Source: Nanobdellota archaeon | GTDB lineage: Archaea > Nanobdellota > Nanobdellia > Pacearchaeales > GW2011-AR1 | Reading direction: 5' to 3' | DNA: 64,000 nt | Assembly (NCBI GenBank): GCA_030647125.1 | Contig: JAUSKC010000013.1 | Location: 2,249 to 66,248 of the forward strand | Shown here: positions 3,570-60,300 of the stretch, piece by piece | Layout of the letters: each line of letters opens with the position of its first letter | Position numbering within the stretch: position 1 is the stretch's first letter | Made by a program: the position numbers and the translations under genes | Notes under the pieces: model-generated | Told to the model about the DNA's origin: nothing | Database searches by the model: none | The model's input: the letters and a program-made list of their open reading frames with translations, nothing else

Positions 3570-4095
3570 TTTTTAAATTTGTTGAAAAATCAAAACTATT
3601 CAAGATTGTGCCTTCTTTCGGCCTCTGCAATAATATCAATAAAAAGAGAAGAGAATAAACCAAATGCGCTGGCAAACAGACCAAAAACATCCAAAAAATC
3701 TACTTGTATTAATTGTAATGTAAGATAAATAAAAATAAAGAACTCAATAATCTTAGAAAATATCTTTAATCTGTCAATAGAAATCATTTTATAAAAGACT
3801 TCTAATTATTGCAAAGACCAGCAAAGCAAGAGCCAGAAACCCAATAATCCAAGCAACCCATTGCAAAACAGAAATCTTCTCTTTCTTTGGCATAAACAAT
3901 AAAAGAGTTTGTTCTTTTTAAATTTGTCCTCTCTTACGCATTTTATCAAAATTCAATCTATAATAATTAGAAAAAATCAAAGCCGCAATTCCTGCATGAA
4001 TAAACTTTCATAGGAAAATCTAATCTCCCATTTTTAAAAGAATCAATAATTTTATTCATAAAAATTCAAAGAGAAATTAATATTTAATTTTATTG

Positions 4096-4395
4096 TTATT
4101 CTTGATATCTCTTCTTAACAGTTACTTCTTCTTTAAGAACACCTTCATAAGCCTTAGCCAATTGAACCGCCATGTCAAAATAAACAGGACTATAAACGCT
4201 TACTCTTGGATGAATTAAATTGCCAAAATGAATAATTGGAGATCTTTCCTGTCCTCTATACACTCCTATATAATCACTGGAATCTTGAGTTGTTAAAAAC
4301 CCATTACCCACAAGTTCCTTAGTAAGTTCAACTAAACGACTATAATTATCCCTTTCTTGAATATCTTCTTTTGTTAAACCTTCTATTTTAACCAT
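4096..4395 (-). CDS. hypothetical protein
   Basis: 99-aa ORF in otherwise non-coding space, good RBS-like context; no recognisable motif. Confidence 0.3.
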   Translation of the reverse strand: MVKIEGLTKEDIQERDNYSRLVELTKELVGNGFLTTQDSSDYIGVYRGQERSPIIHFGNLIHPRVSVYSPVYFDMAVQLAKAYEGVLKEEVTVKKRYQE

Positions 4396-4455
4396 CTATT
4401 TTTAATAAAATACTTATTTATAAAAATTTATATACTATCTCAAAAACAGATTATC

Positions 4456-4866
4456 ATGGAAAGCTACGAACAAATGCTCAATGACGCGTTCTCAAAAATA
4501 AAGCAGCCGCAAGGAACTGGCGAACGTTTTGAAATCCCTACAGCCGAAGGCCGATTTGAAGGGAAAAAAACAATCATAACAAATTTCGCGCAGTTAGTTG
4601 ATATTTTAAGAAGGCCAAAAGAACACTTTGCAAAATTTCTTTCAAAAGAAACAGCAACTCAAACGCAAATAGACGGAGACCGTCTAATATTAAACAACAA
4701 AGTCCCTTCTTCAAAGATAAATCAAAAAATTGAACAATACACAAAAGAGTTCGTTCTTTGCAATGAATGTGGAAAACCCGACACTGAATTAACAAAAGAA
4801 GACAGAATAACAATAAAACACTGTCTTGCATGCGGCGCAAAGCACCCCGTAAGATCAAAAATTTAA
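4456..4866 (+). CDS. eif2b: translation initiation factor aIF-2 beta subunit
   Basis: C-terminal zinc ribbon CNECGKPDTEL...HCLACGA and conserved aIF2-beta core (ILRRPKEHFAKFLSKE). Confidence 0.85.
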   Translation: MESYEQMLNDAFSKIKQPQGTGERFEIPTAEGRFEGKKTIITNFAQLVDILRRPKEHFAKFLSKETATQTQIDGDRLILNNKVPSSKINQKIEQYTKEFVLCNECGKPDTELTKEDRITIKHCLACGAKHPVRSKI

Positions 4867-37760: not shown

Positions 37761-39548
37761 ATGATAACTCGTCAAGAATTAATAAAGAAATATATTGAAT
37801 TTTTTAAGCATAAAGGGCATAAGCACATCCCTTCTGCATCGCTTATTCCTGAAAATGACCCTACAGTTTTATTCACAACAGCAGGAATGCACCCTTTAGT
37901 TCCTTTTCTTTTAGGACAATCACATCCTTTGGGAAAACGCCTTGTATCAGTTCAAAAATGTATCAGAACAGGCGACATTGAAGAAGTAGGGGACAAAGTT
38001 CATCACACTTTTTTTGAAATGTTGGGCAACTGGTCTTTAGGGGATTATTTTAAAGAAGACGCAATAAAATTCTCTTTCGAGTTCCTGACAAAAGAACTAA
38101 AAATTCCTTTAGAAAAATTAGCAGTAACTTGCTTTGTTGGAGATAAAAACGCAGGAAAAGATATTGAGTCCTCAAAAATCTGGAAATCTCTAGGAATCAA
38201 AGATGAAAGAATTGCTTTCTTGCCTAAAGAAAAAAATTGGTGGGGTCCCGCTGGCTTAACAGGCCCGTGTGGTCCTGATACAGAAATGTTTTATTGGAAG
38301 TCCAAAACAAAAAAAGTTCCAAAGGTCTTCAATCCTGAAGATGAAAATTGGGTTGAAATTTGGAATGATGTTTTTATGCAATACAACAAAAACAAATCCG
38401 GAAAGTACGAGCCATTAAAACAAAAAAATGTTGATACTGGAATGGGAGTTGAAAGAACTTTAACAATCTTAAATGAATTGGAAGACAATTATCAAAGTTC
38501 AATCTTCAAACCAATAATTTCTGAAATTGAAAAGATATCAAAAAAGAAATACAAATCATCAGATTCTGACGACGATAAGTCAATGAGAATTGTAGCAGAC
38601 CATATTAGAACAGCAACATTTATACTTGGAGAAGAAAAACACCTAACGCCTTCTAACACCGACCAAGGTTACGTTTTAAGAAGATTAATCCGAAGAGCAA
38701 TCCGTTTTGGAAGACAACTTGGCATAAAAGAAAATTTCACTTCACAAATTTCAAAAATAATAGTTCATGAATATACAGACTATCCAGAATTAGCAAGAAA
38801 TCACAAGTCAATAACTTCCGCACTTGATGAAGAAGAATTGCGTTTCCTTGAAACGCTTGAAAAAGGCCTAAAAAAGTTTAACCAATTTGTAGAGGAATTC
38901 AAAAAAATAATTCCCGGAAAAGAAGCTTTCTTATTATTTCAGTCATACGGATTTCCAATTGAAATGACTCAAGAACTAGCCGATGAAAAAGGAATTGAAG
39001 TCGACTTGGAAGAATATAATGAAGAATTCAAGAAACATCAAGATCTATCACGAACAATGTCCGCCGGCCGTTTCAAATCCGGACTTGCTGACGATTCAGA
39101 GGCAACTAAAAAACTTCACACTGCAACACACTTGCTAAATGAAGCGCTAAGACAAGTTCTAAAAGATAACAACATAAAACAGCGCGGTTCTAACATAACT
39201 CCAGAACGTTTGCGTTTTGACTTTAACTTTTCAAGAAAATTAACAGATGACGAACTAAAAAAAGTTGAGCAATGGGTAAATGACAAAATAAAAAAATCTC
39301 TTCCAGTAACAAGAGAAGAAATTCCTTTGACACAAGCAATGGCATCAGGAGCACAATCAGAATTCGGCTCAAAATATCCTGAACTAGTGTCTGTTTACAC
39401 AATAGGAAATCCAAAATCATTTATTTCAAAAGAAATCTGCACAGGCCCCCACGTTTCAAACACTTCAGAAATTGGGAATTTCAGAATAATAAAAGAAGAA
39501 TCCAGCGCAGCTGGAATCCGTCGTATCAAAGCAGTTATAAGTAATTAA
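37761..39548 (+). CDS. alaS: alanyl-tRNA synthetase, bacterial-type catalytic + editing domains, lacking C-Ala domain
   Basis: FTTAGMHPLVP (bacterial FTNAGM-type), WGPAG, editing HTATHLLNEALRQVL; ends right after the editing domain (...AGIRRIKAVISN). Confidence 0.85.
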   Translation: MITRQELIKKYIEFFKHKGHKHIPSASLIPENDPTVLFTTAGMHPLVPFLLGQSHPLGKRLVSVQKCIRTGDIEEVGDKVHHTFFEMLGNWSLGDYFKEDAIKFSFEFLTKELKIPLEKLAVTCFVGDKNAGKDIESSKIWKSLGIKDERIAFLPKEKNWWGPAGLTGPCGPDTEMFYWKSKTKKVPKVFNPEDENWVEIWNDVFMQYNKNKSGKYEPLKQKNVDTGMGVERTLTILNELEDNYQSSIFKPIISEIEKISKKKYKSSDSDDDKSMRIVADHIRTATFILGEEKHLTPSNTDQGYVLRRLIRRAIRFGRQLGIKENFTSQISKIIVHEYTDYPELARNHKSITSALDEEELRFLETLEKGLKKFNQFVEEFKKIIPGKEAFLLFQSYGFPIEMTQELADEKGIEVDLEEYNEEFKKHQDLSRTMSAGRFKSGLADDSEATKKLHTATHLLNEALRQVLKDNNIKQRGSNITPERLRFDFNFSRKLTDDELKKVEQWVNDKIKKSLPVTREEIPLTQAMASGAQSEFGSKYPELVSVYTIGNPKSFISKEICTGPHVSNTSEIGNFRIIKEESSAAGIRRIKAVISN

Positions 39549-40009: not shown

Positions 40010-43000
40010 TCATTCCAAATAAATCCCCGGCTTGCCCGGCTTAACTTTTTTGCTTTTTCCGTCCGGATCATATTTATCTTTATCATTAACAGCATAAACT
40101 TTTATATCAAGACCTGTTCGTTTTTTCAACTCATCAACGCTATCAACAAAATTCTTCTTTTCGTTAGGCAAAACATAAACCCAACATTTTGAAACTTCTT
40201 TTCCTTCCCGTTCTTTTATAATTTTAACAACGTGATTTATATCTTCAACAAGCTTTGCAACATCTTGCTCTTGCTTTTCCAAACTCTCATTAATCTTCGC
40301 TTCTTCAACTTTAGGCCATTCAGATGAAGAAATCAGACCAACACCTCCTATTTTCTCCCACATTTCTTCAGCTATGTGCGGGCAAAAAAGAGACAAAAGT
40401 TTCAAACCCTTTTCCAAAACTAATCTATCAGTTTCCAGAGGCAAAGAATTAAACAATTCCCTGACTTTTATAATTGCTAAGTTATATTTGAAATTTTCAA
40501 TCTGGTTCGTCATTTCTTTAATAATCTTATTCAATTTGCTTTCAATTTTAGCGTCTGATTTCTTAACAATCTTAACATTTTGAAAATAATCATAAACTTT
40601 ATTCAAGAATTTGAAGCTTCCAACAAGAACATTCTCATCCCAAAGAGTATCATTTTCAGGAGAAGCCAAACTCATTAAAGCCAAACGCAAAGAGTCCGCG
40701 CCATACTTCTTAATAATATCCAAAGGATTAATCACATTACCTAACGACTTTGACATCTTCTGCCCATCAGCGCCATGCAAAAGCCCTTGATTAAACAATT
40801 TAATAAACGGCTCATCAATTTCAGGAATCAAATCTAAATCCCTCAAGGCCTTTGTAAAAAAACGCGCGTAAATCAAATGCATCGTCGCATGTTCCGCGCC
40901 TCCAATATATTGATCAACAGGCATCCAGTATTTTACTTTATCAATTTCAAAAGGTTTTTTTGAATTTTCCGAGTCCAGATATCTCAAATAATACCAACTC
41001 GAATCAAAGAAAGTATCCATCGTGTCCGTCTCTCGTTTGGCTTTTCCATTACATGAAGGACATTTTACATTAATCCATTTTTCATTTGTTTTCAAAGGAT
41101 TTCCTTTTCCAAATTTAACTTTTTCAGGAAGAACAATAGGCAAGTCACTTTCTTTAATAGGAATAATTCCACACTTATCACAATAAACAACTGGAATAGG
41201 AGTTCCCCAATAACGCTGACGTGAAACCAACCAATCTCTTAATTTAAAATTAACAACCTTGCGTCCTAATTTTTTCTTTATTAAAAATTTAGTAATTTCT
41301 TCTTTAGCTTTTTCACTTTCCACTTCATCAAATTCATCCGAATTAATTAACCATCCTTCTCCAGTATAAGCTTTCGACTCTTTTGTAAAATCAATTTCTC
41401 CTTCCCTTGGCTGAATCACTGCCTTAATTTCAATATTGTATTTTCTTGCAAACAAATAATCCCTTTGGTCGTGAGCAGGCACAGCCATAACCATTCCACT
41501 CCCATAATCAGCGACGACAAAATTGCCGGCATAAACCGGAACTTTTTTATTATTTACAGGGTTTACAGCATAACTTCCTGTAAAGACACCTTCTTTGTCA
41601 AGTTCTTCAAGTTGTTTTTCAGAAACGCCTTTTAATTTTTTCAAGAATTTTTCTACTTCTTTCTTTTGTTTGTTAGAAACTAATTCCATAAGTCGCGGAT
41701 GCTGCGCTGAAACAACCATAAAAGTCACTCCGTAAATAGTATCTGGCCTTGTCGTAAATATAGACCACTTTTCATTTCCAATAATTTCATTTAAAAGTTC
41801 AGGAAATTCTCCTGTTCCCATATCATATATAGTATAATGCCCATGATTTTTTAATTCAATAATTTCGCCGCCCAAAGAATCATGAAAGATCTTAACGCTT
41901 TTCTTACCATCGGCTTCCTCATTATTTGCAGTAAAAATAATTACTTCACCAACTCTATCTTTAATTCCCAAGTCAATATTATAATCATAAAAATCTTTTG
42001 GAGCATTACCAGATTTAGCAATTTTCCAAGGTGCGACTAAAATTAGTTTTTTAATTTTCTTTTTAGTATCACCAAGCCATCTTACTAAAAATGCACAGCC
42101 GCAACTATGTCCAATTAAAACAGAATTCTCATCTATTTTATTTTTTTCGAATTCTTTCTTCCAATTATAATAATCAGCTTTCCAGGCCTCGGGCATTAAA
42201 GGAGAAAAAACCTTAATCTTTCTTTCCTCAAGTTTCTTTTTAATCCAAGGAATCCAATGTTTATCATAAGTTCTTTTTTCTTGAGAATACTCCGCTTTTT
42301 CAGCAGACGGACAACCATGAACAATCACAACATTAGAAAGTTTATTTGAATTTTCAATCTCAAACAAAATCTCCGTCCCTTCCGAACGTCCAATCCAATT
42401 CTTCTGCATCAACTTAATTCTTTCAGGCCAATATAACTTGTCAACCTTATCCAAAAGCTCGTCAGCATAATTTGTCGTTTTGATAAACCATTGTTCAAGT
42501 TGCTTGATTTCAACAGGTGTTTCAGGATGTCTCCAGCAACAACCACCATGAACTTGCTCATTCGCTAAAACCGTCTCACATTTACCACACCAATTAACCG
42601 GCGACTTTTTTCTATAAATTAAACCTTTTTCATAAAGTTTAAGAAAAAAATATTGATTCCATTTATAATATTCCGGCTTTGACGTCACAATCATTTTACT
42701 CCAATCGTAACTCAATCCTAACTTATGCTGTTGATTTACAAAATTTTTTATAGAATTTTCAGTGTACTTTCTAGGATGTTCCCCTGCTTTTATCGCCGCA
42801 TTTTCAGCAGGCAATCCAAAAGCATCGTAACCCATTGGATAAAGAACATTCATCCCTTGCATTCTCTTGAAGCGCGCATAAATATCCCCTATAGTATAAT
42901 TCAAAGCATGGCCCATATGCAGTCCAGCTGCCGATGGATACGGAAACATTTCAAGAACATAAAACTTCTTTTTCTTTTTCGTGCCTGCGGCGTCCGGGGA

Positions 43001-43072
43001 TACTTCAAAGACCTTCTTTTTTTCCCACTTACTCTGCCATTTTGTTTCTATCTTTTTAAAATCATAAACCAT
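40010..43072 (-). CDS. leuS: leucyl-tRNA synthetase (archaeal type) with inserted RBBP9/YdeN-like serine-hydrolase domain
   Basis: HMGH, KMSKS-type (KMSKSLGN), CP1 editing FTTRPDTIYGVTFMV; a ~180-aa alpha/beta-hydrolase module (VVIVHGCPSA...HWIPWIKKKLEE...IGHSCGCAF...LVAPW...HGHY) sits between GRSEGTEI and FTTRPDT. Confidence 0.9.
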   Translation of the reverse strand: MVYDFKKIETKWQSKWEKKKVFEVSPDAAGTKKKKKFYVLEMFPYPSAAGLHMGHALNYTIGDIYARFKRMQGMNVLYPMGYDAFGLPAENAAIKAGEHPRKYTENSIKNFVNQQHKLGLSYDWSKMIVTSKPEYYKWNQYFFLKLYEKGLIYRKKSPVNWCGKCETVLANEQVHGGCCWRHPETPVEIKQLEQWFIKTTNYADELLDKVDKLYWPERIKLMQKNWIGRSEGTEILFEIENSNKLSNVVIVHGCPSAEKAEYSQEKRTYDKHWIPWIKKKLEERKIKVFSPLMPEAWKADYYNWKKEFEKNKIDENSVLIGHSCGCAFLVRWLGDTKKKIKKLILVAPWKIAKSGNAPKDFYDYNIDLGIKDRVGEVIIFTANNEEADGKKSVKIFHDSLGGEIIELKNHGHYTIYDMGTGEFPELLNEIIGNEKWSIFTTRPDTIYGVTFMVVSAQHPRLMELVSNKQKKEVEKFLKKLKGVSEKQLEELDKEGVFTGSYAVNPVNNKKVPVYAGNFVVADYGSGMVMAVPAHDQRDYLFARKYNIEIKAVIQPREGEIDFTKESKAYTGEGWLINSDEFDEVESEKAKEEITKFLIKKKLGRKVVNFKLRDWLVSRQRYWGTPIPVVYCDKCGIIPIKESDLPIVLPEKVKFGKGNPLKTNEKWINVKCPSCNGKAKRETDTMDTFFDSSWYYLRYLDSENSKKPFEIDKVKYWMPVDQYIGGAEHATMHLIYARFFTKALRDLDLIPEIDEPFIKLFNQGLLHGADGQKMSKSLGNVINPLDIIKKYGADSLRLALMSLASPENDTLWDENVLVGSFKFLNKVYDYFQNVKIVKKSDAKIESKLNKIIKEMTNQIENFKYNLAIIKVRELFNSLPLETDRLVLEKGLKLLSLFCPHIAEEMWEKIGGVGLISSSEWPKVEEAKINESLEKQEQDVAKLVEDINHVVKIIKEREGKEVSKCWVYVLPNEKKNFVDSVDELKKRTGLDIKVYAVNDKDKYDPDGKSKKVKPGKPGIYLE

Positions 43073-43146: not shown

Positions 43147-43668
43147 ATGAACAAAATACACGCGCACCTTTCAGGAAACTCTGTGACTTCAAATTCATCA
43201 GACGCTTACACTTTGCAGCAAAAAAGTTCGTTTGGCGAGCGAGTTGAAAATAAAGTGCAATACTCCGCAGTCGAGGCCTTATATTTAGCAGAAAGAAATA
43301 AACTTGAAATATTCGACTCAAAAAATAAAAGTTTATCCATAGATCATTTGCAAAAAAGATTCCAGCAAATTGACAAGAAATTCAAATTAAAATATATTGT
43401 CTTCAAGGACTTACGAAATAAAGGTTACATTGTAAAAACTGCATTAAAATTTGGGGCGGAATTCCGTGTCTATCCAAAAGGAAGTTCTCCAGGCAAAACC
43501 CACTCAAAATGGATTGTTTTCACAGACCACGAATCAAAGAGCTTTAACTGGCATGAATTTTCTTCAAAAAATAGGGTTGCACACTCCACAAAAAAGAATC
43601 TCTTGCTTGCAATTGTTGATGAAGAATCAGATGTCACATATTATGAGATTAAATGGATTAAACCATAA
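43147..43668 (+). CDS. endA: tRNA-splicing endonuclease subunit
   Basis: Catalytic C-terminal domain KYIVFKDLRNKGYIVKTALKFGAEFRVYPKG...HSKWIV. Confidence 0.8.
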   Translation: MNKIHAHLSGNSVTSNSSDAYTLQQKSSFGERVENKVQYSAVEALYLAERNKLEIFDSKNKSLSIDHLQKRFQQIDKKFKLKYIVFKDLRNKGYIVKTALKFGAEFRVYPKGSSPGKTHSKWIVFTDHESKSFNWHEFSSKNRVAHSTKKNLLLAIVDEESDVTYYEIKWIKP

Positions 43669-54390: not shown

Positions 54391-57300
54391 CTAAACTATT
54401 TGGGTAACCGAATTCGTTGCACTAGAACTATACTCATTATAATACTTAATAACATTAGGGACATGAGTACTTTTTGCACGGATTAACTTTTCTTCCTTAA
54501 CCTTCCCATTTAAATTTTGTACACATTGATCATAATTAATAAAAGTTCCACCAACTTTACAATTACTAACAACAACAGAAGGACCGACATTGTAAGCTAA
54601 AGCCAAAATTCTTGGATTAGTTATTTGATAATTACTCCTTAAACAAGAAACATAACAAGTTCCAACTAAAATATTTCTCCTGTTAGCAATTCCATTAATA
54701 TCAGTCGTACTAGCAAATTGTGAAAGCAATTGCGCTCTGCTCGTAGACAAAGTAGAATAACCTATATTACTCAAATCAGCCGAACATGAAGGAACACAAA
54801 TCCCATCGATAGAATGAGTATTAAGATTAACAAAATCACTTAACATGCCATCTTCTTTTGCAGGAGTCAACTGCATTAAACCGATATCAGGAGTGCTTGC
54901 TGGATTCCAATCACTCTCTTGTGTTATTAAGGCCCTCACAAAATTTGCATTAACATTATATTTACCAGTTACTTCAATAACATAACTTGTCAAAGCGCTT
55001 TCAACATCACTATTGCTCGTAGAAATACGAACATTCTGACTATCAGAACTTAAAACATCATAATTTAAATTAATGCTATCAAAACTTGAAGTAGTTGCAG
55101 TTACTCCTCCACTAGTTCCTGTTTCAGTCGTCGTTCCGCTCGTCTGCGAATTAACAATCATATCAACAACTCCAAGCAAATCAGAATTTGTAACACTTGA
55201 ACTAAAAGTATTAGAAGTAACAGGAATATCTTTCAAATTCTCCCCATCATCAACTTTCCAGACCCCATCATAATAAAAATGATAACTTGTTGAACCGGAA
55301 GTCGCGCTAAAATAAAAGTCCCCTATGCCCAAACTTTGCGAACTTACAATTATATTTGCAATAGATTGTTTATTTTCATTAGTTAAACCAACAAAAGGAT
55401 CAGAAAATGTTCCACTTCCCGTAGTCGACACACCGCCGCCAACTTGATTTGTACTTAGTATGGTCTGTTGTGAAATAGCTTTATTATTTTCATCCTCAAA
55501 ATCCTGCGTCGCCAAAATTCCATAAGCTACTGCTCTCAAGAACAATATCTGTACCTTATTTGTATCCAACAACGATTGAGAAATTAAATTCTCAGTAATG
55601 TAACTTATTTTTTCAGCCGGACTCATTGCATTAATTTTATTCAATTCCATGTTTATATCAAATGAACTCGTCTGACCCAAAGCATTTATAACACTCGAAG
55701 ATAAACCTTGCAATGTATCGTTCTCAATTCCTATTCCTTTAATTGCTTGCTTAACGCTTTGCGTATCAATATAACAATTTAATCCTGCCGTCCCGCAACT
55801 TCCAACTTGAACCCAACGAGCATTTGCCCCTCCATCCAAAGGATCAGTTCCTTTTCCTGGGCTTGAAGTAGAACACACACGAACAATTCCTTGATTGTAC
55901 AATTGCGGATTCAAAACTTGATTCGCGCCTTCTTGAACATTTGGCTGAACTAAACTATAAACACTCGGCGTTCCTGAAACACACTCTTGTTCAGTTTTTA
56001 CTGTCTGCGTCGCTTGCTCTTTCAAATACTGATCATTCAAATAATTCAAAGCAAATGAAGTTGTAACTTTTTGGAAGCCGCAATCATCTTTTCCGTTGAC
56101 AGAAATACACATCTGTTGATATCCTGTCGGAGCAAGAATATCTTTTGTTTCTGATGCCGAGCCGCCACGTTTAATATAACCAGAATCAACAACTAAAAGT
56201 TGATTTGTCTGGTAATAAGAGCTTCCAACTGGCGCCTTCAAGTAAACTTGGAAATAAGCACCTTGATCATTTCCAGAATAAATATGATAAAAGACCTTAT
56301 ACTGCGAAGTTGAAGGCACTGTAGCCGTTGTGTAAGGAATTTCGCTGAACCATCCTTGATATTGATTTGGTGAATCAGGAGCAAGCAAGTTATCTAAGAA
56401 TTTTCCACTATTAGGGTAATTTGCCGACGCGAACGCCTTACAAACTGTGCTTCCAACTTCATTTGTCGACCTAGCTTGGAACGCCTTATACGATTGAGCT
56501 CCATAATAATTAACCATATAATCAATTGAATTCTGCGCATTTGTCCAAGCACTTTGAATTCCTAAATATTCTCCACCGCCATGCGACGTCTTTCCTGAAA
56601 CAACTTCCAAAAGTTTCGGAACTAAAAGATTTGCAACTGGAATTGATTGTCTCCACAAAAATTCACACATATAAATACTATTAATCTCGTCACAAATTCC
56701 AACAGTTCTCCCAGTATCTAAATTATCTTGCAAACACATTTGATAATCTTTCATTACAGAAATTAAATCATCAACTCCTGCTTTAACTCCAGTTAAACAA
56801 ATAGGAACTTTAACTTCCGGGAAATTAGGCAAGCAAAGAGCGACACTTCCTATAATTCCGGATTGAATAACATTATCAACATGGTACGAACCACCTAAAT
56901 CACATCTTGAAGATGGACAAATTACCGGGTCGCAAACATTAAATAATAAATTACAATTTGCAGGACTCATGAAATCAGTGCATTCAATATCCGGAACATT
57001 TGTAGCTGGATTTCCAACTTTAATTGTCTGTCCGTTAATAACAACTTGAGTTACTCCTGCCTTGTATTGTCTGCTAGCTTGAGTAATTGCATTTATCGCT
57101 TGCCTTACTAAACTTTGAGTTTGCCCTTCAGTAAGCCCTGGGAAAGATCCGTAAATCGCTCCAGTTCCAGGATTAAATTCTGTGCAAGTGTCATCGCCAA
57201 ATCCTGAATCAGCTTGTGCTCTCCCATTAGCACCAACATTACAAAGCAAGAAACTTGCAGGAGCTCCTGATTGATCATACGTCGCTGTAGCTCCTCCAAC

Positions 57301-60300
57301 ACCAGCAATGTTAGCCAAAGCGCCAGGCAAAGTCTGTTTAGTATAAGTATACCACCCATTGCTCAAATCAAATGGAACTTGTGCAGGCATTCCTTTGTAA
57401 GGTGCTGTTTCAAAATACTTTACTTGTGCATCAATAAATTTATTATTATAACTTGAACTATCATACTTTACAAAAACAGGATATCTTGATTTCACAAGCT
57501 TAGTATTTTCATCGCTTGCAGCTCCGCCAGCTAAATCATAAACATTATCTGGAACATAATTTCCATTCCCAGCATCCTTCAAACTGACAATATATTCTCC
57601 ACTACTTACAATGGCTCCTGCAACAGGCGTTCCAGAAATTATTCCATAACTATTCGCTCCTGCAACTGCTCCATTATAAACTCCTGGCTTCAAATCTTTA
57701 TCCACAAAAACATTAAAGTTAAGTCCGTTTATTCCTTTGCCCGCAGCTTCACTTACACTATTTGTTATCTTTGTATATGTCTCGCTTCGTGTCTGAATTG
57801 TTTTTAACGTCGAATACAAATTCGCTTTGGCAATTTGTTCTAATTCAGGACTAGGATTGTTTGCCAAAACCGCATTCCACGTCGATATATCTCGAGCTTC
57901 GCTTAACTGAACTTGCCCATCACTATACCCTTTTTGTGTAAAAACACTTTTTACTTCGGCAACATCAATATTATTATTTTGATTATTAGGATCTGTAATA
58001 ACTGCAGGCAAACCACTTGCAATTTGTTGTAATTGTGTTCCTGCATTGCTGTCAGTTACAGGATTTTTACTATACTCTGTAATAATTTGGCTTAATTTAT
58101 CAACATCAGTATTTATCTCGTCATTATTTTCAAGCAGACACGTGCTTACACTAGAATATTTTTTCTGGCTGAATAATTGTTGACATTTAGAATTCCATCC
58201 TCCAGGCCCAGTCATCACGTTTTGTCTAGCAATTGCTTTTCCTCCAGTATTGCTTATGAAATTTGAAACTGTCAAGAAAGCCCCCGTCGTCAAACACGCT
58301 GCCTTAAACCCTGTAACAACTGTTCCAAGATTCTTAGAAATTCCTTCCCATTTGGCAATGCTTTGATTCAAATTATTAATTTTAGATTGAATCTGATCCG
58401 GCGCAAGTTGAATTGCCCGCTTTTCAATTCCAAGTTTAAAACTAAAATTCGCTTGTGAATTAACATTATTTATTTCAGGAATTAAAGATACCTTTGCAAC
58501 TTTATGCAGATTAATTCCTGTTAAAATAATTGTTTTATCCCCAACAGCAACGGCTTTGTTCTTTTGAAGAATAAGATTCTGATTAGACGCAAATCCTGCT
58601 TTATCATCTTTTATAGTTGAAACAGCCTTAACACTTACAGTCGCCGTATTATCATCTAAATTAACTAACTGAATAAATTCGCCGCTGGAAGAATCTTCAT
58701 GCTTTTGTTCCTTTCCAAGTTGCACACTTTCACTCCCAAACAATATATTCGCGCTGTAATCATTCGGCGACGGCTCAACAACATCATTTAATCCAATTGT
58801 CGTAGCAACTCCATTAATCAATAATGTTTTTGAACTTGCTGCCCCATTTGACAAAGCTAAAGTGTCTCCGCACTGATTTTGAACTTGAACTAATAAAGGC
58901 GATGTTGAATAAAGTTGCACGAAACGTCCGCAAAGTTCAGTTGCTTTAGAATATTCATGAACTCCAAATGCAAGTTTTATTGCAGCAAACAAAGAACTCT
59001 CTCCATAAGTTACTCCTCCATTATTTACACTTCCATAAGAACTGACTATTCTATTATAATCACTCAATGCCTTAAAAAAATTGCTTCCTTGCTTATTGCT
59101 GAAATCAAATTTATTAACTCCAGTAGAATATCCCACAACTTTTAAATCACTTCCAAAAACACTCGTCGATAATTTAATCTTTGGATCAACTGTCTGCGCC
59201 GCTCCAAAAGGAACAACTTCTCCTCCCAATATACTAAAAGAAGAAATATCTCCTGCTCTAAATTTAGAATTAATTGTATTTGTAATTGTGCTTAAAGTTG
59301 AGGCCTCTAAATTTGAATTTGTTGTCTCATAAAGATAAACATACAAATCACCTGTGTTCATAGAATCAAGATTTGGTTTTCCACTAGCATCCTTTGAATA
59401 AGAACCAGTATAAACTAAATATGCATTCTGGCCATTTATAGAATGAACTAACTCGCCAACATTCTTCACAATAGGATTGCCCCCTACATCAAGTTTCACC
59501 GACGGACTTGTTATCAAATCAAAACTCTGACTTCCACTATCAGTTGTACATCTTACACTTACTCTCTTATTCAACCCTTGTTTTAGGACATTATAGGCCT
59601 GGCATCTATTTTCTGCAAAACTTTGTCCTTCTGACAAATCAAATACATTTCCATTGATTTCTACTTTTGCAATTGTGCCCGGATTTTGTATATCATCTAA
59701 ATGAACTCTCATATAAGCATTACAATAAAATCCTGGAATTGCAATCTGGCCAGAACTTGCTCCCTTTTGCAAAGTCACACTATAAGTTCTTTGTGTCTTA
59801 TCAGCATAAACAGAAATTGTCGCGTCGTTATTTGTAACATCATTCACTCTCAAATATCCTCTCCCATTCCAAAATCCATACCCAACAAAATTATTATTCC
59901 AATCACTTTCACTTAAAACCGGAAGAACGTATTGTGATTGACCTATGCCAAACGCTTTTTGAATATCATAACGAATCGTCGCTGTCAAGTTTCCTTCGAC
60001 AAAATCTGGCATTGCAGATTCATTTTGTTGTTGTTTCAAAACAATAACTGCATAACCAACATTGCTCAAAACAGGAGAATTTAATAAAGTCCCGCTTGAA
60101 TACGACAAAGCAGCCCTTGCAGGATAAAATCCTATTCCTGAAATAGCAGCCGGCCTTTGTGTTCCTGAAGAAAAACCAATATCCATATGCTCAATTGCCT
60201 TAACGTCAATTAATGGATTTATTTTAGTTGCAACTATCGGACAAAAAACAGGAACATTTTCTTCTTCTAGCAAATCGCTTCTTACCACCATTGGTGTACA

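What the first reader, a model, noticed from the sequence alone, without database searches (positions are those of the whole stretch)
41798..42343. Serine-hydrolase (RBBP9/YdeN-type) domain inserted in-frame inside leucyl-tRNA synthetase
Most archaeal LeuRS have only ~15 residues between GRSEG(A/T)EI and FTTRPDT (start of the CP1 editing domain). Here ~180 residues intervene. The insert aligns end to end with the RBBP9/YdeN serine-hydrolase family: VVIVHG start, HWxxW+KKxLE, nucleophile elbow IGHSCG (GxSxG), LVAPW, and C-terminal HGHY (catalytic His region). LeuRS sequence resumes in frame on both sides, so this is a genuine domain insertion, not an intein (no Cys/Ser+1 or HN splice motifs) and not a frameshift. 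A hydrolase next to the editing site suggests an extra ester-hydrolysis (proofreading-like or deacylase) activity, or a moonlighting esterase. I know of no precedent for an alpha/beta-hydrolase fused into an aaRS at this position.
Basis: partly seen in the sequence, partly recalled or inferred. Interest (0 to 1): 0.8.

Follow-up and report, generated by a model that had tools for sequence, protein, structure and literature searches.

The report
Serine hydrolase nested inside leucyl-tRNA synthetase
A complete, apparently active small serine esterase sits in-frame inside the leucyl-tRNA synthetase of a tiny symbiotic archaeon, and comparison with relatives shows that this enzyme has been repeatedly attached to that synthetase (next to it, or inside it at three different places), which points to an undescribed accessory clean-up activity in protein synthesis.

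Summary
ORF 40010-43072 (-) is a 1020-aa LeuRS with a complete RBBP9/YdeN-type serine hydrolase (aa 240-434) nested at the tip of the beta-hairpin entering the CP1 editing domain. The triad Ser323-Glu385-His412 and the LeuRS catalytic and editing motifs are all intact. It is not an intein, frameshift or assembly chimera.

Two corrections: the LeuRS is bacterial-type, in a DPANN archaeon, and the architecture is common. Of the 120 closest LeuRS clusters, 89 have this site occupied.

New findings:
- A syntenic relative (~90% nucleotide identity) lacks exactly these 570 nt.
- The same hydrolase also occurs at a second site inside CP1, at a third site in a CPR bacterial LeuRS, and as a separate gene abutting LeuRS.
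- 16 of 80 genome loci found with the hydrolase alone are physically linked to LeuRS.
- The same sites also carry NUDIX or Ham1 domains.
- Nearly identical LeuRS genes carry very different insert alleles.

Best reading (unproven): a trans-editing-factor-like alpha-aminoacyl-ester hydrolase coupled to LeuRS, with the substrate unresolved. Main rival: a passenger domain. I found no description in the searched literature.

The parts
40010..43072 (-). Complete LeuRS ORF, 1020 aa, bacterial type, with the nested hydrolase. Identical to NCBI MDO8467678.1, annotated 'class I tRNA ligase family protein [Nanoarchaeota archaeon]'.
42356..43072 (-). LeuRS N-terminal part, aa 1-239: Rossmann-fold first half with the HIGH motif (HMGH aa 52-55, 42908-42919) and the zinc module. 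It ends with the strand GRSEGTEILFEI, which forms the first arm of the hairpin that carries the insert.
41771..42355 (-). Nested RBBP9/YdeN-type serine hydrolase with its linkers, aa 240-434: N-linker ENSNKLSN, domain VVIVHG...FPELLNEI, C-linker IGNE. This is insertion site S1.
41799..42368 (-). The 570-nt in-frame indel relative to the syntenic, ~90% identical locus L001 (LeuRS P0122, 824 aa, no insert), as placed by the DNA aligner. The exact borders are ambiguous by about 10 codons, because EILFEI (LeuRS) resembles ELLNEI (hydrolase C-terminus).
42098..42112 (-). Nucleophile elbow GHSCG, aa 321-325. Ser323 lies at 42104-42106. Ser is conserved in 89/90 embedded and 120/120 free-standing homologues and aligns with RBBP9 Ser75.
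41918..41920 (-). Glu385, the catalytic acid. It aligns with RBBP9 Asp138. The position is Glu in 120/120 free forms and Asp or Glu in 87/90 embedded forms. The neighbouring position 384 (Asn here) varies between D and N and is not the catalytic acid.
41837..41839 (-). His412, the catalytic histidine (in HGHY). It is invariant in all 210 homologues compared and aligns with RBBP9 His165.
42314..42319 (-). His252-Gly253, the HG motif after strand beta1. An oxyanion-hole role is inferred from alpha/beta-hydrolase topology. The motif is nearly invariant in the family.
   Evidence: role inferred
41738..41755 (-). TTRPDT, aa 440-445: the threonine-rich peptide of the CP1 editing pocket, equivalent to T. 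thermophilus 247-252. It starts 6 residues after the insert and is intact; five of its six residues (T440, T441, R442, D444, T445) are invariant in 115 aligned LeuRS.
41459..41479 (-). PAHDQRD, aa 532-538: the CP1 editing motif with the conserved aspartates, equivalent to T. thermophilus D344/D347. Intact.
41351..41425 (-). Second insertion site S2, empty in this protein (aa 550-574, KAVIQPREGEIDFTKESKAYTGEGW; the T. thermophilus 363-376 loop of CP1). In relatives it carries NUDIX, the same hydrolase, or unknown domains.
40745..40759 (-). KMSKS motif, aa 772-776, of the synthetic active site. Intact.
43147..43668 (+). Context: divergently transcribed tRNA-splicing endonuclease (173 aa). This is an archaeal marker, and the same gene flanks LeuRS in L001, L089 and L090.
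37761..39548 (+). Context: AlaRS (595 aa), convergent with LeuRS. In the relative L090 a free-standing hydrolase gene lies between LeuRS and AlaRS.

Best explanation
The window encodes a bacterial-type LeuRS of a DPANN (Nanoarchaeota sensu lato) archaeon that retains every catalytic and editing motif I checked. A complete, catalytically intact RBBP9/YdeN-family serine hydrolase (Ser323-Glu385-His412) is nested at the tip of the first beta-hairpin of the CP1 editing domain, 6 residues before the threonine-rich editing peptide.

The hydrolase is an autonomous module. Free-standing 187-195-aa orthologues, 60-71% identical, are common in CPR bacteria and DPANN archaea.

I propose that it behaves like a trans-editing factor: an alpha-aminoacyl-ester hydrolase that needs a free alpha-amine, as RBBP9 does. 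It would remove unwanted aminoacyl esters or thioesters produced by class Ia synthetase chemistry. Candidates are the aminoacyl-ribose ester of wrongly charged tRNA, or diffusible products such as mis-activated aminoacyl-adenylate or homocysteine thiolactone. On this view it has been repeatedly tethered to LeuRS so that it acts at the source, adding to CP1 editing rather than replacing it.

Shown: domain identity, fold, intact triad, intact LeuRS motifs, recurrent physical linkage to LeuRS, dispensability, and rapid allele turnover.

Inferred: the substrate class and any benefit of tethering. Whether the substrate is tRNA-bound or a small molecule is unresolved; I put these at roughly equal odds.
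For: Identity and integrity:
- Pfam PF06821 E 1e-13.
- Fold match to YdeN/RBBP9, TM 0.76-0.83.
- Profile alignment puts S323 on RBBP9 S75, E385 on D138 and H412 on H165. These residues are conserved in 87-90 of 90 embedded copies and all 120 free copies.
- HIGH, KMSKS, TTRPDT and PAHDQRD are intact; most residues of these motifs are invariant in the 115 LeuRS aligned.

Coupling to LeuRS:
- 89 of the 120 closest LeuRS clusters have S1 occupied.
- The same hydrolase sits at S2 inside CP1 with S1 empty (P0148, P0157, L025, L037, L048, L084).
- It sits at a third site, in the anticodon-binding domain, of a Peregrinibacteria (CPR) LeuRS (P0292).
- It is a separate gene abutting an insert-free LeuRS, with 1-nt spacing or overlapping codons, in L010, L013, L015 and L090, and 27 nt upstream in L089.
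- It lies 16 nt downstream of IleRS in a CPR bacterium.
- In a scan of GTDB species genomes with the hydrolase alone as query, 16 of the best 80 loci are physically linked to LeuRS.
- Two further close free relatives sit in RtcB-hydrolase-Archease operons, which is also tRNA-centred.

The free/adjacent/nested pattern is the one known for editing modules such as YbaK versus the ProRS INS domain and AlaX versus AlaRS (established knowledge).

Chemistry of the nearest characterised relative:
- RBBP9 hydrolyses aminoacyl compounds only when the alpha-amine is free (PMC8866121).
- RBBP9 activates valacyclovir, a valine ester of a nucleoside analogue (Shenoy 2020, cited in PMC7730578).
- The other valacyclovirase, BPHL, is an efficient homocysteine thiolactonase (PMC4198189).
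- LeuRS is a known source of that thiolactone (PMC4458266).

Several basic residues conserved in at least 93% of free forms (R267, K271, R331, K342, K350, K390), some of them in loops that I infer from alpha/beta-hydrolase topology to line the active-site edge, fit an anionic, nucleotide-containing substrate (inference).
Against: - No biochemical data exist for any member of this CPR/DPANN subfamily.
- CP1 editing residues are intact in all LeuRS with or without the insert, so there is no sign of a gap the hydrolase would have to fill.
- The insert is dispensable: a ~90% identical syntenic relative lacks it, and no hydrolase gene lies within the ~12-kb contigs that carry that relative's LeuRS.
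- The same sites carry NUDIX, Ham1 and unknown domains, which have no obvious link to Leu-tRNA proofreading.
- The hydrolase is occasionally nested in UvrB, EngA/Der and a GT2 glycosyltransferase.
- 64 of 80 free-like genome loci show no aaRS link, and their neighbours are highly diverse.
- The residue aligned with RBBP9's alpha-amine anchor Glu108 is Asn356 here (Asp in 75/120 free forms), in a poorly aligned loop.
- Nesting at three geometrically different sites argues against a fixed channel from the tRNA CCA end to the hydrolase.
- Model coordinates could not be read, so no distance between active sites is available.
Confidence: 0.45

Rival explanations
1. Passenger (guest) domain. The hydrolase is a self-contained house-cleaning enzyme with its own unrelated substrate. 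It sits in structurally permissive surface loops of an essential, constitutively expressed protein. Fusion is kept for co-expression or genome streamlining in these tiny genomes, and has no mechanistic role in aminoacylation or editing.
For: - The same two sites also host NUDIX, Ham1-like and unknown domains.
- A CPR IleRS hosts a histidine-phosphatase domain.
- The same hydrolase is nested in UvrB, EngA/Der and GT2 and fused to YdjC.
- Hydrolase-NUDIX fusions and adjacency exist without any aaRS (P0099, P0248, P0250, L004).
- Neighbours of most free-standing genes are unrelated: 94 singleton families.
- A ~90% identical relative lacks the insert.
- Embedded copies evolve much faster than free ones, with mean pairwise identity 44% versus 66%.
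Against: - LeuRS is by far the dominant host. It is hit at three different sites, in two domains of life, and is also the gene directly abutting the free-standing form on either side.
- 16 of 80 loci are linked to one gene in a scan not biased towards LeuRS, far above chance.
- The catalytic triad is retained even in the most divergent embedded copies.
Confidence: 0.25
2. Target-tethered immunity module. The hydrolase, and the NUDIX and Ham1 guests, would detoxify aminoacyl-nucleotide 'Trojan-horse' inhibitors of synthetases (leucyl-adenylate mimics such as the agrocin 84 warhead, or microcin-C-like compounds) directly at the target enzyme. This would be analogous to the serine peptidase MccF, the acetyltransferase MccE and the HIT hydrolase MccH.
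For: - Presence/absence polymorphism exists between ~90% identical genomes.
- Cassette-like allele replacement: LeuRS cores 88-95% identical carry inserts only 41-55% identical, with mosaic blocks. There is no correlation between core and insert distances (Spearman -0.07). This pattern is typical of loci under fluctuating selection.
- Known immunity enzymes against such antibiotics are a serine hydrolase, a GNAT and a nucleotide hydrolase, and LeuRS is a known target (PMC8323819).
- NCBIfam contains a model for an IleRS with a GNAT domain (NF040702, listed).
- These symbionts depend on importing peptides and nucleosides (established knowledge), which is the entry route of such compounds.
Against: - This is purely analogical.
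- The hydrolase is not homologous to MccF: Pfam gives no S66 peptidase hit.
- No inhibitor is known in these communities.
- The free-standing form is highly conserved (mean 66% identity across CPR and DPANN), which is unlike a typical arms-race gene.
- The mosaic pattern could partly reflect strain mixing in metagenome assemblies.
Confidence: 0.1
3. Artefact or dead insert: a chimeric assembly, a pseudogene, or a catalytically inert structural spacer.
For: The window is from a metagenome-assembled genome. The loop at aa 261-270 of the insert is modelled with low confidence (pLDDT 58).
Against: - The ORF is uninterrupted at 1020 aa.
- Insert-bearing LeuRS come from NCBI, JGI, ENA and Logan assemblies, some on contigs of 200-700 kb.
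- The triad is intact and conserved.
- Models are confident for the domain and the whole protein.
- GC content of the insert (0.30-0.32) is similar to the rest of the gene.
Confidence: 0.02

Closest known systems
Human RBBP9 (PDB 2QS9, 7OEX, 9FCR) and B. subtilis YdeN (1UXO), Pfam Ser_hydrolase PF06821
   Same: Same Pfam family, above the curated cutoff. Same lidless ~190-aa alpha/beta fold (TM 0.76-0.83). The nucleophile Ser in GxSxG, the acid and the His sit at aligned positions. RBBP9's known activities, an aminopeptidase that needs a free alpha-amine and a valacyclovir esterase, are the chemistry proposed here.
   Different: Only ~20% sequence identity. The acid is Glu, not Asp. A distinct, very conserved CPR/DPANN subfamily with its own invariant motifs (RTYDKHW, APWK, EExDGKKS). 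Here it is nested inside another enzyme rather than free. Substrate untested.
Editing and trans-editing modules of aminoacyl-tRNA synthetases (LeuRS CP1; ProRS INS versus free YbaK/ProXp; AlaRS editing domain versus AlaX; DTD)
   Same: A hydrolytic module associated with a synthetase that occurs free-standing, as a neighbouring gene, or inserted into the synthetase. Here it sits on the editing domain itself.
   Different: Unrelated fold: an alpha/beta serine hydrolase with a covalent-catalysis triad, unlike known editing domains. It comes in addition to an intact CP1. It occurs at several alternative insertion sites, is dispensable among close relatives, and no deacylase activity has been shown.
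BPHL (valacyclovirase / homocysteine thiolactonase)
   Same: An alpha/beta serine hydrolase specialised for alpha-amino-acid esters. It shares the valacyclovir substrate with RBBP9 and detoxifies a reactive product of class I synthetase editing (PMC4198189; PMC4458266).
   Different: A different alpha/beta-hydrolase family with a cap domain. No homology was tested here beyond the shared superfamily. The link is by analogy only.
Immunity enzymes against aminoacyl-nucleotide antibiotics (MccF, MccE/RimL, MccH) and the IleRS with a GNAT domain (NCBIfam NF040702)
   Same: Small hydrolases or transferases that act on aminoacyl-nucleotide compounds. One precedent has such a domain fused to a class Ia synthetase.
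   Different: No sequence relationship to MccF (S66 peptidase). No inhibitor or resistance phenotype is known here.
Inteins in essential genes
   Same: An in-frame nested insertion at a conserved site of an essential gene. Presence and absence differ between close relatives, and the insert's history is decoupled from the host gene.
   Different: No Hint domain, no splice-junction residues and no homing endonuclease. The insert is an enzyme that is predicted to stay in the mature protein.
Bacterial-type LeuRS in archaea (Halobacteria; Fang et al. 2014, cited in PMC9437257)
   Same: An archaeon using a LeuRS of the bacterial type.
   Different: A different archaeal lineage (DPANN). The leucine-specific domain is missing. 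It carries nested hydrolase modules.

Membership tests
Ser_hydrolase PF06821 (RBBP9/YdeN family) | Profile-HMM score above Pfam's gathering threshold | tested here: met
   48.6 bits in the whole protein and 51.6 bits for the insert alone, against a cutoff of 22. A family profile also hits 1UXO (E 8e-13) and RBBP9 (E 2e-8).
Ser_hydrolase PF06821 (RBBP9/YdeN family) | Compact lidless alpha/beta-hydrolase fold of about 190 residues | tested here: met
   The AlphaFold model (pLDDT 86.5) finds 1UXO, 7OEX, 2QS9 and 9FCR as best PDB matches: TM 0.76-0.83, rmsd 2.3-3.3 A.
Ser_hydrolase PF06821 (RBBP9/YdeN family) | Catalytic triad Ser (GxSxG) - Asp - His at the canonical positions | tested here: met
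   S323 aligns with S75 and H412 with H165. The acid position (RBBP9 D138) is Glu385, a conservative variant that is Glu in 120/120 free-standing subfamily members.
Ser_hydrolase PF06821 (RBBP9/YdeN family) | Serine-dependent hydrolysis of aminoacyl esters or amides | not testable with these tools
   Needs enzyme assays of wild type versus S323A.
Bacterial-type leucyl-tRNA synthetase (TIGR00396 leuS_bact) | Equivalog HMM score above the curated cutoff | tested here: met
   905 bits against a cutoff of 548.4. The archaeal model leuS_arch gives 229 bits against a cutoff of 648.5. Foldseek best hits are T. thermophilus, N. gonorrhoeae and E. coli LeuRS.
Bacterial-type leucyl-tRNA synthetase (TIGR00396 leuS_bact) | HIGH and KMSKS signature motifs, and CP1 editing residues (T-rich peptide, conserved Asp) | tested here: met
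   HMGH aa 52-55, KMSKS aa 772-776, TTRPDT aa 440-445, PAHDQRD aa 532-538. Most residues of these motifs are invariant in the 115 sequences aligned.
Bacterial-type leucyl-tRNA synthetase (TIGR00396 leuS_bact) | Leucine-specific domain before KMSKS (present in T. thermophilus and E. coli LeuRS; not universal) | tested here: not met
   The alignment of the insert-free relative P0122 to 1H3N skips T. thermophilus residues 578-625. This is not a defining feature of the family, so membership stands.
Intein | Hint domain; Cys/Ser at the insert's first residue; His-Asn at its end followed by Cys/Ser/Thr | tested here: not met
   No Hint/intein Pfam hit. The insert starts ENSNK and ends IIGNE, followed by KWS.
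Known aaRS editing / trans-editing domains (CP1, YbaK/INS, AlaX, DTD) | Homology of the extra module to one of these folds | tested here: not met
   Pfam, NCBIfam and fold searches assign the insert only to alpha/beta hydrolases. Any editing-like role would be by analogy, not by membership.
MccF-type (S66) immunity peptidases | Homology to Peptidase_S66 / LD-carboxypeptidase | tested here: not met
   No such Pfam hit at E up to 0.1.

The most novel reading that the evidence does not exclude
LeuRS of CPR/DPANN organisms may be a docking platform with defined 'ports': S1 and S2 on the editing domain, and S3 on the anticodon-binding domain. Exchangeable detoxifying modules (serine hydrolase, NUDIX, Ham1-like and unknown domains) would be swapped in and out of these ports by recombination. 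These modules would protect the synthetase at the target, either against aminoacyl-nucleotide inhibitors or against reactive aminoacyl by-products. That would make this a target-tethered immunity or metabolite-repair system under fluctuating selection, which would be a new principle for synthetase evolution and for antibiotic resistance.
Probability: 0.12. Interest if true: 0.9.

Novelty: new variant of a known kind. Interest (0 to 1): 0.7.

Why it matters
Synthetases with added hydrolytic modules are how cells keep the genetic code accurate, and every such module known so far belongs to a handful of dedicated editing folds. Here a covalent-catalysis serine hydrolase, whose nearest studied relative cleaves aminoacyl compounds with a free amine, is attached to LeuRS in every way evolution allows. 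It is found as a neighbouring gene and nested at three sites, in both archaea and bacteria with minimal genomes.

If it acts on aminoacyl-tRNA or on reactive aminoacyl by-products, it would define a new class of translational quality-control or metabolite-repair factor. It would also give a first physiological clue for the poorly understood RBBP9/YdeN family.

The natural series of insert-free, adjacent and nested forms, together with a near-isogenic pair with and without the insert, makes the question directly testable. The port-like insertion sites, with their swapped cargo, are also of interest for protein engineering and for understanding how multidomain enzymes arise.

Tried and rejected
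- **Intein or frameshift:** rejected. The ORF is continuous, there is no Hint domain, and there are no splice-junction residues.
- **Chimeric assembly:** rejected. The architecture recurs in independent assemblies, some on contigs of up to 700 kb.
- **Target-site duplication or microhomology at the junctions:** the 18-nt similarity (EILFEI versus ELLNEI, 12/18 matches) is reached by 62 of 500 shuffles, so it is not significant.
- **Asp384 as catalytic acid:** rejected. The position varies between D and N, whereas the next residue (E385) is invariant and aligns with RBBP9 D138.
- **Hydrolase compensating for a degenerate CP1:** rejected, because the editing residues are invariant with or without the insert.
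- **Single ancient insertion inherited vertically:** not supported. Core and insert distances are uncorrelated, close core pairs carry divergent mosaic inserts, and all insert-free forms keep a uniform NG-turn hairpin of identical length. My trees were only neighbour-joining without bootstrap, so the number of gains and losses is not resolved.
- **NUDIX subfamily assignment, to guess a shared substrate:** nothing above any NCBIfam cutoff.
- **Conserved neighbourhood of the free-standing genes:** apart from aaRS, RtcB/Archease and NUDIX, the neighbours are singletons.
- **A second hydrolase copy or second LeuRS in the window:** none.
- **Identity of the LeuRS C-terminal ~100 aa:** no PDB sequence hit.
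- **AFDB fold search:** unavailable.
- **Inter-domain geometry:** model coordinates cannot be read, so the distances between Ser323, the CP1 pocket and the synthetic site could not be measured.
- **Literature:** ten full-text searches found no paper describing this architecture.


Full report
**1. The observation**

The minus-strand ORF 40010..43072 encodes a 1020-aa protein. Pfam places three domains along it:
- a class I synthetase core at aa 11-227;
- Ser_hydrolase PF06821 at aa 270-426 (E 1.2e-12, 48.6 bits, cutoff 22);
- the LeuRS editing domain from aa 433.

NCBIfam identifies the host as bacterial-type LeuRS: TIGR00396 gives 905 bits against a cutoff of 548, while the archaeal model gives only 229 bits.

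The genome is nevertheless archaeal:
- The identical protein is deposited as MDO8467678.1 from a Nanoarchaeota MAG.
- The neighbours are a tRNA-splicing endonuclease, ribosomal protein S17e and TFE (for the syntenic locus L001).

The motifs it quoted are those of bacterial-type LeuRS, not 'most archaeal LeuRS'.

**2. Borders of the insert**

Pairwise alignment to insert-free relatives places the insert at aa 240-434, window 41771-42355. Insert-free forms read FEI-NG(E/V)K-W. This protein reads FEI-ENSNKLSN-[hydrolase]-IIGNE-KW.

The locus L001 was assembled three times from groundwater samples. It is syntenic and about 90% identical in DNA over 9 kb. The only large difference is one clean 570-nt in-frame gap, placed at 41799-42368. 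A short similarity between the two junctions is not beyond chance, being reached by 62 of 500 shuffles.

**3. Integrity of both enzymes**

An AlphaFold model of the insert (pLDDT 86.5) finds YdeN (1UXO) and RBBP9 (7OEX, 2QS9, 9FCR) as its best PDB matches, with TM 0.76-0.83.

A profile alignment maps the triad as follows:
- Ser323 on RBBP9 Ser75;
- Glu385 on Asp138;
- His412 on His165.

In 90 embedded and 120 free-standing homologues:
- the Ser is kept in 89/90 and 120/120;
- the His in 90/90 and 120/120;
- the acid in 87/90 (Asp or Glu) and 120/120 (Glu).

The adjacent position 384 (Asn here) varies and is not the catalytic acid.

The whole-protein model is confident (pLDDT 89.9, pTM 0.78) and superposes on bacterial LeuRS structures. 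It shows the hydrolase emerging from a two-stranded ribbon formed by strands 229-240 and 434-440.

HIGH, KMSKS, the threonine-rich editing peptide (aa 440-445) and the PAHDQRD motif are all intact, and most of their residues are invariant across 115 aligned LeuRS.

Mapping on T. thermophilus LeuRS puts the insertion at the hairpin tip E237-E240. That is inside the editing domain and just before T247-T252.

**4. It is not a one-off**

Among the 120 closest LeuRS clusters, all from DPANN archaea where named:
- 89 have this site (S1) occupied;
- 18 have a second site (S2) occupied by 60 aa or more; S2 is a CP1 loop equivalent to T. thermophilus 363-376;
- 16 have both;
- 29 have neither.

Cargo at S1 is the hydrolase, once a Ham1-like domain (P0209), and once two hydrolases in tandem (P0185). 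Cargo at S2 is NUDIX (at least six), the same hydrolase with S1 empty (P0148, P0157), or unknown 90-130-aa domains.

A search of 1.8 billion representatives added further arrangements:
- tandem NUDIX plus hydrolase at S1;
- the hydrolase at a third site, in the anticodon-binding domain of a Peregrinibacteria (CPR bacterial) LeuRS (P0292);
- rare other hosts: UvrB, EngA/Der, a GT2 glycosyltransferase and a YdjC fusion.

**5. The free-standing form and its link to LeuRS**

The insert is 60-71% identical to more than 2000 free-standing 187-195-aa proteins of CPR bacteria and DPANN archaea.

A scan of GTDB species genomes with the hydrolase alone found 290 loci. Of the best 80:
- seven are nested at S1;
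- four are nested at S2;
- three are separate genes directly after an insert-free LeuRS, with overlapping or 1-nt-spaced codons (L010, L013, L015);
- one lies 16 nt after an IleRS in a CPR bacterium, and that IleRS itself carries a histidine-phosphatase insert.

I looked up six of the seven closest free relatives of this window's insert:
- four abut LeuRS, including P0003/L090, which has the window's own synteny (endonuclease, LeuRS, hydrolase, AlaRS);
- one of those four, P0002/L089, has the hydrolase just upstream of LeuRS;
- two sit in RtcB-hydrolase-Archease operons.

Elsewhere the neighbours are diverse. A NUDIX gene or domain is a second recurrent partner.

**6. Turnover**

Distances between LeuRS cores and between their inserts are uncorrelated (Spearman -0.07 over 3741 pairs). 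Pairs of nearly identical LeuRS carry very different inserts:

| Pair | Core identity | Insert identity |
|---|---|---|
| P0179 / P0133 | 95% | 50% |
| P0161 / P0126 | 89% | 55% |
| P0161 / P0152 | 88% | 41% |

The P0179/P0133 alignment is mosaic: a 90% identical block lies between blocks of 25-35% identity.

Free copies are conserved (mean 66% identity), whereas embedded ones average 44%. Many embedded copies have lost motifs that are invariant in free forms, yet they keep the triad. The window's copy is of the 'free-like' type.

All insert-free LeuRS keep a hairpin of the same length with an NG turn, and the outgroups of the window's LeuRS lack the insert. Together these points favour a recent gain in this lineage, or exchange by recombination, over many independent precise deletions. 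My neighbour-joining trees have no support values, so this remains inference. Strain mixing in metagenome assemblies could blur which core goes with which allele, but not the existence of the alleles.

**7. Mechanism**

What is shown:
- an intact serine hydrolase on an apparently intact LeuRS;
- recurrent physical linkage of the two genes;
- dispensability;
- cassette-like variation.

What is inferred is the chemistry:
- RBBP9, the closest characterised relative, cleaves aminoacyl compounds only if the alpha-amine is free (PMC8866121).
- RBBP9 activates valacyclovir, a valine ester of a nucleoside analogue (Shenoy 2020, cited in PMC7730578). That closely resembles the aminoacyl-ribose ester at a tRNA 3' end.
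- BPHL, the other valacyclovirase, is a homocysteine thiolactonase (PMC4198189), and LeuRS makes that thiolactone (PMC4458266).
- The free/adjacent/nested distribution mirrors that of known trans-editing factors.

I therefore favour a trans-editing-factor-like alpha-aminoacyl-ester hydrolase coupled to LeuRS (confidence 0.45). The substrate is open: aminoacyl-tRNA, or diffusible aminoacyl esters or thioesters.

Two points favour a diffusible substrate: nesting at three geometrically different sites, and the intact CP1. The tRNA-centred gene neighbourhoods favour a tRNA substrate.

The main rival is a passenger domain in permissive loops (0.25). It is supported by the other cargos and other hosts, and weakened by the strong, cross-domain preference for LeuRS. 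A more speculative reading is target-tethered immunity against aminoacyl-nucleotide antibiotics (0.1), by analogy with MccF, MccE and MccH (PMC8323819). An artefact is essentially excluded.

**8. Novelty**

The protein is in GenBank, but annotated only as a class I tRNA ligase. Ten full-text searches found no description of a serine hydrolase, NUDIX or Ham1 domain nested in LeuRS. Synthetases with added hydrolytic modules are a known kind. This fold, these insertion sites and this turnover are not, so I rate it a new variant of a known kind, of high interest to the synthetase field.

Noticed in passing
relatives P0127, P0128, P0129, P0138, P0151, P0181, P0185, P0199 (site equivalent to window 41351-41425): A second insertion site inside the CP1 editing domain carries a NUDIX domain in many DPANN LeuRS, usually together with the hydrolase at the first site. 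The NUDIX subfamily could not be assigned.
   Followed up: partly
relative P0209, aa 236-444: One LeuRS carries a Ham1-like (ITPase family) domain at the first site instead of the hydrolase. Its N-terminal linker (ETP...) is of the same type as in hydrolase-bearing forms, which suggests the cargo was swapped within an existing insertion.
   Followed up: partly
relatives P0125, P0142, P0216, P0220; P0166, P0175; P0140; P0147, P0214 (second site): Several unrelated 90-130-aa domains with no significant Pfam match occupy the second site of LeuRS. One type has the motif GGAWYADS...VFPNKHF.
   Followed up: partly
L065:305-3976 (+) and 3992-4564 (+): In a CPR bacterium (Yanofskybacteria MAG), a 1223-aa IleRS carries a histidine-phosphatase (phosphoglycerate-mutase-like) domain at aa 524-693. 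The free-standing hydrolase gene follows 16 nt later.
   Followed up: partly
P0296 (UvrB, hydrolase aa 431-578), P0317 (EngA/Der, aa 164-367), P0245 (GT2 glycosyltransferase, aa 183-373), P0290 (YdjC fusion): The same hydrolase is nested in-frame in other unrelated housekeeping proteins. In the two whose sequences I read (UvrB, EngA/Der) the Ser, acid and His are intact. Each case is represented by only one or two sequences.
   Followed up: partly
P0292 aa 722-876 (Peregrinibacteria LeuRS, MBT4936803.1): There is a third insertion site for the hydrolase. It lies in a loop at the start of the anticodon-binding domain of a CPR bacterial LeuRS, after KMSKS.
   Followed up: partly
L088:2608-4983 and L006:1686-4980: Two of the closest free-standing relatives lie between RtcB (RNA ligase) and Archease with overlapping codons. 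In L006 a nucleotidyltransferase is also present, and in L088 a LAGLIDADG gene lies upstream.
   Followed up: no
window 37761-39548 (+): The AlaRS is only 595 aa: catalytic core plus the tRNA_SAD editing-type domain, by the annotation of the syntenic locus. It is much shorter than typical AlaRS.
   Followed up: no
window 40010-40330 (-), LeuRS aa ~930-1020: The LeuRS C-terminal ~90 residues (ending KPGKPGIYLE, conserved in relatives) are not covered by the bacterial LeuRS model and have no PDB sequence match. The leucine-specific domain of T. thermophilus and E. coli LeuRS is absent.
   Followed up: partly
window 54391-60510 (-): A very long ORF of 2039 aa, followed by a 626-aa ORF on the same strand. 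Neither was examined.
   Followed up: no
L082:3296-6352 (+): A LeuRS with the hydrolase at the first site, on a 200-kb contig, is labelled 'Bacilli bacterium' in its record. The only informative neighbour is a GH31-type glucosidase, so the taxonomy is unverified.
   Followed up: partly
The homologue search with the insert alone returned only short free-standing proteins. It did not return the window's own 1020-aa protein, although that protein is in the database. The tool's candidate step seems to disfavour long proteins, so absence of fused forms in such a list is not evidence of absence.
   Followed up: yes
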